From Escherichia coli (GTDB lineage Bacteria > Pseudomonadota > Gammaproteobacteria > Enterobacterales > Enterobacteriaceae), in NCBI RefSeq assembly GCF_048403405.1, contig NZ_CP183129.1: a stretch of 64,000 bases of DNA. One strand, 5' to 3'. The position numbers were made by a program. Shown here piece after piece: positions 41,500 through 44,400 of this stretch. Positions within the stretch are counted from its first letter, which is position 1; each line of letters opens with the position of its first letter.

Positions 41500-44400
41500 G
41501 GTTATGCGCTGATGCCTGATGCGGCGCGGGCGCGTCTTATCATGCCTGGAAGTCTGCGCCCGAATCGTAGGCCGCCTCCGCTATATTAACTGGCATTGGC
41601 AAATTACTCGTCACTACCTTTATTCATGTTTTTTTGGTCTTCATCCGGATAATGTTTTTTTAGATATTCCAGGACGTTTTTATTGACCTTGTGTTGCGTA
41701 TACACCCACCCTTTCCAGTAATCAGGCTGGTCCAGGTAAACTTCTGGCGGAATGGTGAAATCAGAAAGCGTTAACCATTCGGCTAACAGATCGGGGTTTC
41801 GTTTCTGGATTAACTGCAACAGCATAATCAGTGACATAGCTGAGGCAGGAGCCGTACTATCGCCACTTAAATATTTCCACACTGTTGACCGGTTCGAACG
41901 AAAAAGGATCGGTAGCAATGCCCGGTCCAGATTCATTTCATTAAAAATCTTCTCAAATTCATTCATTTAAATTTTCCTGCCTGGCGTAAACCTCTTAAAA
42001 ATTGAGATTTATCAAAGAAACGCATTTTAGCACACATCAGGAACCGGTTCACGTTTAGTCCAGAAACAGAATTTATTTCGCTTATCAAAACAAGTCTTTA
42101 CTCTTTTTTACATTGAAAGAGCACAAAATGATTTTCGATTTTATTTATATAAGAAACATTTTTTGTTTCTTATTGGTTGTGTTTACGCTTACACCAGACA
42201 AAAATGCGCTTTACATCACACAAATGGCGGCGTAGATTTCGATTAAATTGCAACGCAGTTTATTTCTTAAAACAATATTATTTGTTTCTTATAGAAACAT
42301 TAATGCGACTTATTTTGAACAAGAGAAAATGAATGAAAACTGTAAACGTAGCTTTACTGGCACTCATAATTTCAGCAACATCCAGCCCTGTTGTTTTAGC
42401 TGGTGATACCATTGAAGCGGCGGCAACAGAGCTTTCAGCCATTAACTCTGGCATGTCGCAATCGGAGATTGAGCAGAAGATTACCCGCTTTTTAGAACGC
42501 ACAGACAACAGCCCCGCTGCGTATACCTATTTGACTGAACATCACTACATCCCTTCTGAAACACCTGATACCACTCAGACTCCCACTGTCCAGACAGATC
42601 CTGACGCAGGACAAAAAACCGTTGCCGCTACAGGTGATGTACAGACAACCGCCCGTTATCAGAGCATGATCAACGCCCGACAGTCTGCGGTAACTGATGC
42701 CCAGCAAACGCAAATTACAGAGCAACAGGCGCAGATCGTAGCCACACAAAAAACGCTCGCCGCGACTGGAGATACGCAAAATACTGCGCATTATCAGGAG
42801 ATGATTAATGCCAGACTGGCGGCTCAAAATGAGGCTAATCAGCGCACTACCACGGAACAAGGGCAGAAAATGAATGCACTGACAACCGATGTGGCAGCAC
42901 AACAGCAAAAAGAAAGGGCTCAATACGATAAACAAATGCAAAGTCTGGCGCAGAAGTCTGTCCAGGCACATGAGCAAATTGAAAGTCTGAGACAAGATTC
43001 CGCACAAACGCAGCAACAGTTAACCAACACGCAAAAACGGGTCGCAGATAACAGCCAACAAATTAACACGCTCAATAACCATTTCGATTCTCTGAAAAAC
43101 GAAGTTGAGGACAATCGTAAAGAAGCCAATGCGGGAACTGCATCTGCCATCGCTATCGCCTCACAACCACAGGTGAAAACCGGTGACTTGATGATGGTGT
43201 CAGCGGGAGCGGGAACGTACAACGGTGAATCTGCGGTGTCTGTAGGAACATCTTTTAATGCCGGAACGCATACGGTACTTAAAGCAGGTATTTCTGCGGA
43301 TACACAATCTGATTTCGGTGCGGGTGTCGGCGTGGGATATTCGTTCTAATTTTAACAGCAATTTCTTATTCGCAATTTTCCGTACATTATTTAAGGTTAA
43401 CAATGATGAATAGCTCCATTAAATCGTTTTCCCTGCTGGCGGTTATATTACTGGCTGGCTGTAGTTCACCCACTTCCCGCATCGCAGATTGCCAGGCGCA
43501 GGGCGTCAGCCATGACACCTGTTATCTCGCAGAACAACAGCGTCAGGCGGCTATTTTAAGTGCATCAGAAGCGCAGGCATTTAAAAATGCAGAAGCCGCA
43601 CAACATGCCCAGGCCGCTAAAAAATCTATTTATAAAGGATTTGGCATGACCTTTAGAATGAGCAGTAAGAACTTTGCTTATCTCAATGATTCATTATGTG
43701 CAATTGATGAAGACAATAAAGATGCCACTGTTTATCAGTCAGGTCTTTATAACGTCATTGTTTATCACCACACGGGAAAAGTCGCCTTAATGAAGGAAGG
43801 TCAGTTTGTGGGTTATTTAAAATGAAAGAGCAAAGGAAAATCCCCCTGACGCATATTATGATTATCGGTGCGTTTATTTTTGCCTTCTTGCAAGTGGTGT
43901 TATTAGCCTCCCTGGTTCACGCTGTGAATGTTAACAACGAAATCCAGGAAGGCTTATTTCAGTCGGGGCGCATTATGGTAGAAAGTTTGCAGCATATTCT
44001 TTCGGTGCAAACGGGGATTAACTGATTTTCACCCCGCCCGATGATGACAGCAGCCGGAGAGATTTTCGATAATCGGGCAGTCGGCGCTGTCATCGCCAGG
44101 GCAGGCATTCGCCAGCGCCAACAGCTGGTTGCGCATGGATTGCAGTTCTTCGATATGTCGCTCGATCTCCGCCACTTTCTCCAGGGTGCGACGTTTGACG
44201 TCGGCACTGTGACGCTGCGGATCGTTAAACAGATTCACCAGTTCGCCGCTCTCTTCCAGGTTAAAGCCCACCTGGCGCGCCTGGCGCAGTAAGGTCAGTT
44301 CGTTGAGATGCTGCTGCGTGTAGGTTCGATAACCATTTTCGCTGCGCATCGGCGGCGTCACCAGCCCCTTCTCTTCATAGAAGCGAATGGCTTTGCTGGT

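What the first reader, a model, noticed from the sequence alone, without database searches (positions are those of the whole stretch)
41604..44025. AT-rich four-gene islet between ybbJ and cueR encoding a headless trimeric-autotransporter-like protein
From memory, ybbJ and cueR are adjacent in K-12; here about 2.4 kb of low-GC DNA lies between them. The 338-aa protein has a signal peptide, a Gln/Thr-rich coiled-coil stalk with an internal repeat, and a C-terminal ~60 residues matching the YadA membrane-anchor pattern, but no recognisable head domain. It is followed by a lipoprotein and a translationally coupled 67-aa membrane protein, and preceded by a divergent 120-aa unknown protein. I do not recognise this gene set as a described system; it could be a minimal surface coiled-coil display module or the remnant of a larger adhesin.
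Basis: partly seen in the sequence, partly recalled or inferred. Interest (0 to 1): 0.6.

Follow-up and report, generated by a model that had tools for sequence, protein, structure and literature searches.

The report
Short trimeric autotransporter islet (OI-29)
The four-gene islet is real and is O-island 29 of pathogenic E. coli; its 338-aa protein has every sequence hallmark of an outer-membrane trimeric autotransporter fibre, yet the literature calls this same protein "GmrA", a transcription factor, and it sits in a conserved, undescribed operon with a partner lipoprotein.

Summary
Four ORFs (120, 338, 140 and 67 aa) fill 2,609 bp placed exactly between the convergent stop codons of ybbJ and cueR. 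K-12 lacks the insert. About 26% of 5,426 complete E. coli genomes carry all four genes, single-copy and chromosomal.

The 338-aa protein has a Sec signal peptide, a rare ~55-aa N-terminal cap, a Q/T/A-rich stalk with a 38-aa internal repeat, and a full-length YadA_anchor match (E 6e-12). It is the shortest intact allele of a family whose length varies by cassette number (338, ~460, ~590 aa). It is not a decayed fragment.

The lipoprotein has no Pfam family and a C-terminal 8-stranded β-barrel. It lies directly downstream of short TAAs in 9 of 16 enterobacterial species carrying a full-length homologue (a tenth is 1.9 kb away). That makes it a candidate new TAA partner, unrelated to SadB or TpgA. 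Its function is untested.

The parts
41414..41580 (.). REP/BIME cluster forming the ybbJ-proximal edge of the insert. It is absent at the K-12 junction.
   Evidence: Two ~100-bp-spaced REP-like copies and their inverted repeats. Rfam naRNA4 (REP325-type), 71.9 bits against a gathering score of 59.5, at 41469-41546. This stretch matches a median of 22 places per E. coli genome.
41604..41966 (-). [not shown]
41967..42332 (.). 366-bp AT-rich (GC 0.31) divergent promoter region with repeated AGAAACA/TGTTTCT half-sites. These include the perfect inverted repeat ATAAGAAACA-N5-TGTTTCTTAT (42149-42173) and the palindrome TGTTTCTTATAGAAACA (42283-42299). They are candidate operators.
   Evidence: Five 7-mer copies against 0.09 expected. 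Four copies in O157, two in Pseudocitrobacter L012, two in Symbiopectobacterium, none in L003 or L004. Function is inferred only. The promoter consensus scan was not above background.
42333..43349 (+). [not shown]
42333..42401 (+). Sec signal peptide, residues 1-23, with predicted cleavage VLA|GD.
   Evidence: A basic residue, then a hydrophobic core (KD15 = 2.1), then a small-x-small site. S18, P19, A23, D25 and T26 are invariant across alleles, with AFA|GD in most. No dedicated predictor was available.
42402..42569 (+). N-terminal cap domain, residues 24-79 (GDTxEAAATELxAIxxGMSxxEIxQKIxRFxERT...YLxxHxY). This would be the distal tip of the fibre.
   Evidence: Conserved in all Escherichia alleles and in the Pseudocitrobacter 633-aa TAA. 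The profile finds only 18 clusters among 1.84 billion representatives. In the 16 best-scoring clusters it lies directly after the signal peptide; the full-length sequences read carry anchor-like C-termini.
42612..42860 (+). Two copies of a 38-aa stalk repeat (QKTxAATGDxQxTAxYQxMINAR...), residues 94-131 and 139-176.
   Evidence: Self-alignment score of 115 against 32 +/- 5.6 for shuffles. The motif recurs in the Pseudocitrobacter TAA. Longer alleles insert one or two ~125-aa cassettes just upstream of it.
42870..43157 (+). Membrane-proximal coiled-coil stalk, residues 180-275.
   Evidence: 3.5-residue periodicity, reached by 20 of 1000 shuffles. It aligns to the helix that precedes the barrel in the AtaA and Hia structures.
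43167..43349 (+). YadA-type β-barrel anchor, residues 279-338, four strands per chain, ending in GYSF, plus the stop codon.
   Evidence: Pfam positions 1-60 of 60. Strong 2-residue periodicity. Nearly invariant across the family.
43403..43825 (+). [not shown]
43822..44025 (+). 67-aa single-pass membrane protein, translationally coupled to the lipoprotein by an ATGA overlap.
   Evidence: Basic N-terminus (KEQRK), one hydrophobic span (KD15 = 2.76) and a ~34-aa C-terminal tail. It is conserved with the same 4-bp overlap in E. whittamii and Pseudocitrobacter. It matches no family.

Best explanation
The insert is O-island 29. It is a horizontally acquired, chromosomally fixed surface-protein operon, not a regulator island.

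Shown by sequence: the 338-aa product carries a Sec signal peptide and a complete YadA-type anchor. By the established type Vc pathway it should be exported, assembled by BAM into a 12-stranded trimeric barrel, and display an acidic (pI 4.9) passenger of ~255 residues. That passenger has a rare 55-aa N-terminal cap on a Q/T/A-rich stalk and no head domain.

Shown by comparison: alleles differ by 0, 1 or 2 copies of a ~125-aa stalk cassette. The window carries the shortest, zero-cassette form.

Inferred: cassette number tunes how far the cap projects from the surface.

Inferred from conserved linkage across genera: the downstream outer-membrane lipoprotein is a dedicated partner of this class of short TAAs, helping with biogenesis, stabilisation or anchoring. 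In Escherichia and Pseudocitrobacter its translationally coupled 67-aa membrane protein is part of the same partnership. The role would be analogous to SadB or TpgA, but the protein is not homologous to either.

Inferred from fold and position: the divergent 120-aa XRE-like HTH protein is the local regulator. It would act on the AT-rich intergenic region that carries AGAAACA/TGTTTCT palindromes.

My confidence by step: TAA identity about 0.9; four-gene co-inherited module about 0.9; 120-aa protein as DNA-binding regulator about 0.6; lipoprotein as TAA accessory factor about 0.4. What the fibre binds is unknown.
For: TAA identity:
- YadA_anchor matches model positions 1-60 of 60, E 6.1e-12.
- Solved AtaA, Hia and YadA anchors match at E 2.6e-7 to 0.012.
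- β-periodicity in residues 279-338 and heptad periodicity in residues 180-275.
- The signal peptide and its cleavage site are conserved across alleles.
- RefSeq names it a YadA family autotransporter adhesin.
- The E. coli 042 genome paper counts two trimeric autotransporters in that OI-29-positive strain (PMC2808357).

Intactness and length polymorphism: alignment A1; an intact 594-aa two-cassette allele in strain 118UI; a cluster of 1,187 near-identical 338-aa sequences.

Identity with GmrA: the deletion and cloning primers of PMC5826968 flank or begin exactly at the 338-aa ORF.

No DNA-binding domain: only sub-threshold coiled-coil hits. These are TMF_DNA_bd E 0.079; SMC at 23.7 bits against a cut-off of 567; and JetC, DndD and LmuB. 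The protein is acidic.

Module: the three probes are present in 1,415, 1,382 and 1,416 of 5,426 genomes, all chromosomal and single-copy. The same four-gene order occurs in two Pseudocitrobacter contexts at different insertion points.

Lipoprotein linkage: a TAA gene lies directly upstream, on the same strand, in 9 of 16 species with a full-length lipoprotein homolog, and a tenth (Pantoea) has one 1.9 kb upstream. These span Enterobacteriaceae, Yersiniaceae and Erwiniaceae.

HTH.

Expression: all three annotated OI-29 genes are transcribed in O157 at 20-96 RPKM (Table S3 of PMC5826968).
Against: - PMC5826968 reports EMSA binding of His6-GmrA to the fliA promoter but not to flhDC or rpoS. It also reports 7.75-fold ChIP-qPCR enrichment, complementation by gmrA alone, and motility defects in gmrA-ortholog deletion mutants of eight strains of several pathotypes. 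I cannot explain these away computationally.
- No localisation data exist for this protein.
- I could not run a trimer or even a monomer structure prediction of the TAA, because the quota went to the two unknown proteins.
- Heptad periodicity for residues 90-180 is not demonstrable.
- Six of the 16 full-length lipoprotein homologs, and other ~47-49%-identical paralogs, stand alone without a TAA. The lipoprotein family is therefore not obligatorily TAA-linked.
- Deleting z0638 or z0640 gave no motility phenotype. Deleting OI-29 did not change adherence to HeLa or Caco-2 cells, so no adhesin phenotype is known.
Confidence: 0.75

Rival explanations
1. [not shown]
For: PMC5826968 reports a specific EMSA shift with competition and 7.75-fold ChIP-qPCR enrichment at the fliA promoter. 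fliA, fliC and motA mRNA and flagella are reduced in the ΔgmrA mutant, and a low-copy plasmid carrying only this ORF and its promoter complements. Motility defects appear in gmrA-ortholog deletion mutants of eight strains, and K-12 gains motility with the gmrA plasmid. Reviews repeat the assignment.
Against: No DNA-binding family reaches significance; the only such names are sub-threshold coiled-coil matches. The protein has a conserved cleavable signal peptide, a full-length anchor and a terminal aromatic β-signal. It is acidic, pI 4.9. All homologs are YadA-anchor proteins.

Both binding assays used constructs expected to block normal targeting. One had the pET28a N-terminal His tag placed ahead of the signal peptide. 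The other had 3xFLAG fused after the terminal ...GYSF, driven by IPTG overexpression. That these tags would mislocalise the protein is my inference.

Confidence: 0.08
2. The 338-aa gene is a decayed remnant of a larger adhesin, and the neighbouring small ORFs are incidental.
For: Longer alleles of 436-594 aa exist in other E. coli, E. marmotae and E. ruysiae. A clearly decayed copy exists in Symbiopectobacterium, where the TAA is truncated before the anchor and the lipoprotein is split.
Against: The 338-aa allele keeps the signal peptide, cap, repeats and anchor in one frame. It differs from longer alleles only by clean absence of whole cassettes. It is the commonest form found, with a cluster of 1,187 sequences, and it is transcribed in O157. 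The flanking genes are conserved with it across genera.
Confidence: 0.04
3. The lipoprotein works independently of the TAA. One possibility is a MliC/PliC/ACP-like periplasmic inhibitor of lysozyme or peptidoglycan hydrolases, or another envelope-protective barrel. On this view the linkage to TAAs reflects co-regulated surface functions, not a physical partnership.
Confidence: 0.15

Closest known systems
YadA-type trimeric autotransporter adhesins (type Vc), especially the short E. coli ones (Eib, Saa; 392-535 aa) and UpaG/EhaG
   Same: It has a C-terminal four-strand anchor homologous to YadA, Hia and AtaA, a coiled-coil stalk entering the barrel, a Sec signal peptide, and repeat-driven length variation.
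   Different: It has no YadA_head, Hep_Hag or neck motif. In their place is a ~55-aa cap found in only 18 clusters of 1.84 billion. At 338 aa it is shorter than any characterised E. coli TAA listed in a 2025 review, which names only UpaG/EhaG, Eib and Saa (PMC12525524). No binding activity is known.
sadBA operon of Salmonella and E. coli (TAA plus dedicated trimeric lipoprotein SadB; PMC3953254)
   Same: A small lipoprotein with an N-terminal helical, polar (Ala/Gln-rich) segment and a C-terminal β domain is encoded in an operon with a TAA. The pair is lost or gained together; K-12 lacks both. A stand-alone paralog family exists, comparable to YajI.
   Different: There is no sequence or fold similarity to SadB or YajI. 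The gene lies downstream of the TAA, not upstream. The +2 residue is Ser, which predicts an outer-membrane location by the Asp+2 rule, whereas SadB has Asp+2 and sits in the inner membrane. There is an extra translationally coupled 67-aa membrane protein and a divergent HTH gene. No functional data exist.
AtaA-TpgA of Acinetobacter (TAA plus BamE/OmpA-like peptidoglycan-binding lipoprotein)
   Same: A lipoprotein gene follows the TAA gene, and its presumed role is anchoring or biogenesis.
   Different: No BamE or OmpA domain was detected. The fold is a small 8-stranded barrel. A 2026 survey found only TpgA and SadB as helpers, but it required a YadA head domain, so headless TAAs like this one were outside its net (bioRxiv 10.64898/2026.01.22.700529).
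'GmrA', transcriptional activator of OI-29 (Yang et al. 2018, PMC5826968)
   Same: It is the same gene. The primers map exactly, and the window protein is 95.6% identical to the O157 ortholog.
   Different: The published function, a cytoplasmic DNA-binding activator of fliA, conflicts with every sequence feature found here. The paper does not mention the signal peptide or the YadA anchor.

Membership tests
Trimeric autotransporter (type Vc secretion) | C-terminal YadA-like membrane anchor (PF03895), four β-strands per chain | tested here: met
   Residues 279-338 match model positions 1-60 of 60, E 6.1e-12. AtaA, Hia and YadA anchor structures match at E 2.6e-7 to 0.012. 2-residue periodicity is present.
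Trimeric autotransporter (type Vc secretion) | N-terminal Sec signal peptide | tested here: met
   MKT, then a hydrophobic core (KD15 2.1), then VLA|GD. The site is conserved as AFA|GD across alleles. This was judged by sequence rules; no SignalP-type tool was available.
Trimeric autotransporter (type Vc secretion) | α-helical coiled coil leading into the barrel | tested here: met
   Heptad periodicity in residues 180-275, reached by 20 of 1000 shuffles. The region aligns to the pre-barrel helices of AtaA and Hia. Residues 90-180 are inconclusive.
Trimeric autotransporter (type Vc secretion) | Homotrimer in the outer membrane with a surface-exposed passenger | not testable with these tools
   This needs fractionation, heat-modifiability and surface-labelling experiments.
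Trimeric autotransporter (type Vc secretion) | Globular head (YadA_head, Hep_Hag, Trp-ring etc.). This is typical but not defining. | tested here: not met
   Only PF03895 was found in this protein and in all 120 listed homologs. There is a 55-aa cap instead.
Bacterial transcription factor (the published GmrA assignment) | A recognisable DNA-binding domain | tested here: not met
   Pfam, NCBIfam and PADLOC give only sub-threshold coiled-coil matches: TMF_DNA_bd E 0.079; SMC at 23.7 bits against a cut-off of 567; JetC and DndD.
Bacterial transcription factor (the published GmrA assignment) | Cytoplasmic location | tested here: not met
   The signal peptide plus OM anchor predict export. This is a prediction only, with no experimental localisation.
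Bacterial transcription factor (the published GmrA assignment) | Sequence-specific promoter binding | not testable with these tools
   Binding is reported by EMSA and ChIP-qPCR using N-His and C-3xFLAG constructs (PMC5826968).
SadB/YajI TAA-helper lipoproteins | Homology or fold similarity to SadB (coiled coil plus MATH-like β-sandwich), and Asp at +2 | tested here: not met
   [not shown]
SadB/YajI TAA-helper lipoproteins | Encoded in an operon with a TAA and co-inherited with it | tested here: met
   53-bp gap on the same strand. Co-occurrence in about 1,400 genomes. Linkage in 10 of 16 species, 9 of them directly adjacent.
TpgA-type TAA partners | BamE-like and/or OmpA-like peptidoglycan-binding domain | tested here: not met
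   No such Pfam hit in the protein or in any of 18 aligned homologs.
MliC/PliC lysozyme inhibitors | Family sequence signature, plus the 8-stranded barrel | tested here: inconclusive
   [not shown]
XRE/Cro-C1 helix-turn-helix regulators (120-aa protein) | Five-helix HTH domain | tested here: met
   [not shown]
XRE/Cro-C1 helix-turn-helix regulators (120-aa protein) | Significant match to an HTH sequence family | tested here: inconclusive
   The best hits are MqsA_antitoxin E 0.012, Xre-like-HTH 0.047 and HigA2 0.55. All fall on the same residues and all are below threshold.

The most novel reading that the evidence does not exclude
The lipoprotein, together with its coupled 67-aa membrane protein in Escherichia and Pseudocitrobacter, is a third, structurally unrelated class of dedicated trimeric-autotransporter accessory factor, after SadB and TpgA. 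It is specific to a clade of short, headless, cap-bearing TAAs in Enterobacterales and is regulated by its own XRE-like repressor or activator. On this reading 'GmrA' is not a transcription factor at all, and its motility phenotype is an indirect read-out of this surface system.
Probability: 0.3. Interest if true: 0.7.

Novelty: new variant of a known kind. Interest (0 to 1): 0.55.

Why it matters
1. A protein carried by roughly a quarter of E. coli is entrenched in primary and review literature as a horizontally acquired transcription factor. The carriers include O157:H7, O55:H7, O145:H28, UTI89, RS218, 042 and UMN026 (the strain list is from the paper's Table S4). Its sequence says it is an outer-membrane trimeric autotransporter. 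Localisation and truncation experiments could resolve this cheaply, and the answer would either correct the flagellar-regulation map of EHEC or reveal an unprecedented moonlighting TAA.

2. Only two TAA helper families are known. The most recent global search excluded headless TAAs by design. Here a new lipoprotein family is genetically linked to short TAAs across three enterobacterial families, which gives a concrete candidate to test.

3. The 0/1/2-cassette alleles give a natural length series. It could be used to ask how stalk length relates to O-antigen or capsule shielding.

4. This would be a fourth E. coli TAA group beside UpaG/EhaG, Eib and Saa, with an unstudied tip domain.

Tried and rejected
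- Anti-phage defence system: PADLOC gave nothing except coiled-coil noise on the TAA. Rejected.
- Prophage or plasmid origin: all E. coli copies are chromosomal and single-copy. PHROGs and tblastn against phages show only generic YadA-anchor 'adhesin/tail' proteins at 28-42% identity over the C-terminal 33-57%. This is not an Eib-type prophage gene.
- Toxin-antitoxin reading of the 120-aa protein, prompted by its MqsA/HigA-like fold: there is no adjacent toxin-like ORF, and the partner genes are envelope proteins. Not pursued.
- Sequence-family assignment for the lipoprotein, the 67-aa protein and the 120-aa protein: Pfam (single sequence and per-member), NCBIfam and PDB profile searches all gave nothing significant.
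- The weak TraV and Lpp 'alanine-zipper' hits on the lipoprotein N-terminus (E 9e-4 and 0.016, both below cut-offs) were treated as lipobox or Ala-rich-helix noise. They do hint at a possible trimeric helix.
- Promoter and terminator scans were not above shuffled background for promoters (3 found against 4.9 expected). Only weak hairpins were found. They were not used.
- Rfam found only the REP-derived naRNA4 element and no regulatory RNA.
- My Fourier test for coiled coil failed for residues 90-180, so I do not claim those residues are coiled coil.
- I could not identify which CDD 'DNA-binding domain' the GmrA paper used. The figure is not held, and the 2024 review gives no name.
- Structure prediction of the TAA itself was not run, because both jobs went to the two unknown proteins.
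Full report
**1. What is there**

Between ybbJ (40961-41419, +) and cueR (44029-44436, -) lie 2,609 bp that hold four ORFs:
- 120 aa, 41604-41966 (-)
- 338 aa, 42333-43349 (+)
- 140 aa, 43403-43825 (+)
- 67 aa, 43822-44025 (+), overlapping the previous stop by ATGA

GC is 0.437 for the insert against 0.55-0.57 for the flanks. It falls to 0.306 in the 366-bp divergent intergenic region. In a K-12 derivative the ybbJ and cueR stop codons are contiguous. The insert therefore sits exactly between two convergent genes, with a REP/BIME cluster at its ybbJ edge (Rfam naRNA4, 71.9 bits).

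**2. The 338-aa protein is a trimeric autotransporter by every sequence criterion I could test**

- Pfam gives a full-length YadA_anchor match: residues 279-338, model positions 1-60 of 60, E 6.1e-12. No head family was found.
- The same region, with the helix before it, aligns to the solved anchors of AtaA, Hia and YadA (profile).
- The last 60 residues show a strong 2-residue periodicity and end in GYSF. Residues 180-275 show heptad periodicity, reached by 20 of 1000 shuffles.
- The N-terminus is a standard Sec signal (MKT, hydrophobic core, VLA|GD), conserved as AFA|GD in other alleles.
- The mature protein is Ala/Gln/Thr-rich, has no Cys and is acidic, pI 4.9.
- It contains a genuine 38-aa internal repeat, scoring 115 against 32 +/- 5.6 for shuffles.
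- RefSeq already calls it 'YadA family autotransporter adhesin'.

**3. It is not a decayed fragment**

Homologs are confined to Escherichia and close relatives. They come in length classes of 325-345, 436-480, ~497-530 and 577-594 aa.

The alignment shows the same signal peptide, the same ~55-aa N-terminal cap and an almost invariant anchor throughout. The length differences are clean presence or absence of a ~125-aa stalk cassette. Strain 118UI has an intact 594-aa allele with two tandem cassettes, whose start PGAP mis-called. The window carries the zero-cassette allele, which is also the most populated cluster (1,187 sequences).

A profile of the cap finds only 18 clusters among 1.84 billion representative proteins. 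In the 16 best-scoring clusters it follows the signal peptide directly. The sequences read range from 264 to 708 aa, and the full-length ones carry anchor-like C-termini. The cap is therefore a rare, family-specific fibre tip.

**4. The islet is O-island 29, and the TAA is the published 'GmrA'**

A text search for the O157 locus tag led to Yang et al. 2018 (PMC5826968). That paper describes OI-29 as a 2,643-bp island with z0638, z0639 (gmrA) and z0640.

Its supplementary primers settle which gene is which. The gmrA deletion arms map to window 42294-42332 and 43349-43387, exactly flanking the 338-aa ORF. The cloning primer reads ATGAAAACTGTAAACGTAGCTTTA, which encodes MKTVNVAL. The reverse primer ends on ...GYSF. 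The window protein is 95.6% identical to the O157 ortholog.

The paper, later reviews by the same group and a separate 2022 study all treat this protein as a transcriptional activator that binds the fliA promoter. The basis given is a 'putative DNA-binding domain' from CDD, EMSA with N-terminally His-tagged protein, and ChIP-qPCR with a C-terminal 3xFLAG fusion.

I find no DNA-binding family. The only such names are sub-threshold coiled-coil matches: TMF_DNA_bd E 0.079; SMC at 23.7 bits against a cut-off of 567; JetC, DndD and LmuB. Matches like these are a plausible source of the CDD hit, but that is my inference.

Both tagged constructs would be expected to defeat normal targeting. One places a tag ahead of the signal peptide. 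The other places a tag after the terminal aromatic residue. That too is inference.

The reported phenotypes stand as evidence I cannot dismiss: 1.86-fold smaller swim radius, fewer flagella, complementation, and defects in gmrA-ortholog deletion mutants of eight strains. [quoted passage not shown] No paper I could find mentions the anchor in connection with GmrA. The E. coli 042 genome paper does count two trimeric autotransporters in that OI-29-positive strain.

Sub-threshold sequence hits fall on the same residues: MqsA E 0.12 to 0.012, Xre-like-HTH 0.047, HigA2 0.55.

The gene is divergent from the TAA operon. The intergenic region carries five AGAAACA/TGTTTCT heptamers against 0.09 expected, including a perfect 10-N5-10 inverted repeat. 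These are partly conserved in O157, Pseudocitrobacter and Symbiopectobacterium.

**6. The lipoprotein is a conserved partner of short TAAs**

It has a lipobox (LLAGC) with Ser at +2, which predicts an outer-membrane location by the Asp+2 rule. It also has an invariant two-Cys motif, an Ala/Gln-rich helix, and a confidently modelled C-terminal 8-stranded β-barrel with pLDDT above 90.

Linkage within E. coli: the 120-aa gene, the TAA 3' end and the lipoprotein-plus-67-aa genes occur in 1,415, 1,382 and 1,416 of 5,426 complete genomes. All copies are chromosomal and single.

Linkage outside E. coli: the same four-gene order occurs in Pseudocitrobacter faecalis, next to a recombinase and with a second TAA inserted. 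It also occurs in another Pseudocitrobacter between fetA and qmcA, which is the other side of qmcA-ybbJ. A decayed copy sits near Band_7/NfeD in Symbiopectobacterium.

A species-level scan of 100,044 genomes, combined with my own HMMs, shows the following:
- Of 16 species with a full-length lipoprotein homolog, 9 have a YadA-anchor gene (about 290-730 aa) directly upstream on the same strand, 28-330 bp away. They are a Pseudocitrobacter MAG, E. whittamii, Enterobacteriaceae UBA5654, Phytobacter massiliensis, Yersinia aleksiciae, Rahnella rivi, Enterobacter chuandaensis, E. asburiae and Lelliottia nimipressuralis.
- A tenth, Pantoea conspicua, has one 1.9 kb upstream.
- Six are stand-alone, and other paralogs are also unlinked.

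This mirrors the SadB/YajI situation described by Grin et al..

[quoted passage not shown] Its own search required a YadA head domain, which excludes this class. I therefore propose the lipoprotein as a candidate TAA accessory or partner, at about 0.4. In Escherichia and Pseudocitrobacter the coupled 67-aa single-pass membrane protein would be part of the same function. A TAA-independent hydrolase-inhibitor role is the main rival, at about 0.15.

**7. Verdict**

The finding is real, and its structural reading is right. It is not unknown territory: it is OI-29, it is annotated as a TAA in RefSeq, and one gene has a name. What is new here:
- the demonstration that the named 'transcription factor' is the YadA-anchor protein, while the HTH-fold protein is its neighbour;
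- the conserved TAA-lipoprotein(-67 aa)-HTH module across genera;
- the cassette-number stalk polymorphism;
- the rare cap domain.

I rate it a new variant of a known kind, interest 0.55. The biochemical function of the fibre remains unknown.

Noticed in passing
window 44433-63955 (- strand): cueR overlaps by 4 bp the start of an HlyD-family adaptor gene (44433-45608). That gene is followed by a type I secretion ABC permease/ATPase (45605-47767) and a giant ORF of at least 5,394 aa (47771-63955). Reference genomes annotate the giant ORF as a frameshifted 'BapA-related adhesin SiiEA' pseudogene of ~20 kb. K-12 keeps only a 98-bp remnant of the HlyD gene next to cueR. So cueR is flanked on both sides by strain-variable surface-protein islands.
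   Followed up: partly
window 41414-41580: The ybbJ-proximal edge of the islet is a BIME/REP cluster matching Rfam naRNA4 (REP325-type), 71.9 bits against a gathering score of 59.5. It matches a median of 22 places per E. coli genome. K-12 has no REP at this junction.
   Followed up: partly
L012 3138-5671; L005 700-6330; window 40047-44025: The module recurs next to the qmcA-ybbJ (SPFH/NfeD) pair in three genera but at different positions. It is downstream of ybbJ in Escherichia, between fetA and qmcA in a Pseudocitrobacter, and separated by an MCP gene in Symbiopectobacterium, where it is decayed. Whether this reflects ancestry with rearrangement or a hotspot is unexplained.
   Followed up: no
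L014 2416-4218 (E. coli 118UI): RefSeq/PGAP annotates the long TAA allele from an internal start (L014 3169, 349 aa). The intact ORF with signal peptide begins ~735 bp upstream and encodes 594 aa with two tandem cassettes. Long alleles may be systematically mis-annotated as 'YadA-like family protein'.
   Followed up: partly
L029-L031, L033-L037, L039-L041, L043, L046 (Buttiauxella, Atlantibacter, Pseudomonas, Aeromonas and others): About a dozen species encode ~65-70-aa lipoproteins made only of the N-terminal module of the islet lipoprotein: the lipobox, the CxAQGxSxDTCY two-Cys motif and the helix. They lack the β-barrel. This suggests the module is an independent unit. The Symbiopectobacterium split gene looks the same.
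   Followed up: no
phage records H95-H109 (for example Escherichia phage ECML-606-1, Pantoea phage LIET2, Yersinia phages fHe-Yen9-03 and fHe-Yen9-04): Sixty-six phage genomes encode proteins with a YadA-type stalk and anchor, 28-42% identical to the C-terminal 33-57% of this TAA. They are annotated adhesin, tail protein or receptor-binding protein.
   Followed up: no
L003 3706-5532 (Pseudocitrobacter faecalis): A second TAA-like gene of 588-608 aa, ending ...SLSVGW, is inserted between the cap-bearing 633-aa TAA and the lipoprotein gene. It hits my anchor HMM (E 1e-30) but had no precomputed Pfam anchor hit. The 633-aa TAA also carries collagen-like GKDG repeats.
   Followed up: no
window 41626-41661 (- strand coding, 3' end of the 120-aa gene): Two ATGTTTTTTT tracts (A7-8 on the coding strand) lie near the 3' end of the 120-aa gene. 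Several database variants of this protein have frameshifted C-termini (P0178, P0191). This hints at slippage-prone tails. It was not analysed.
   Followed up: no
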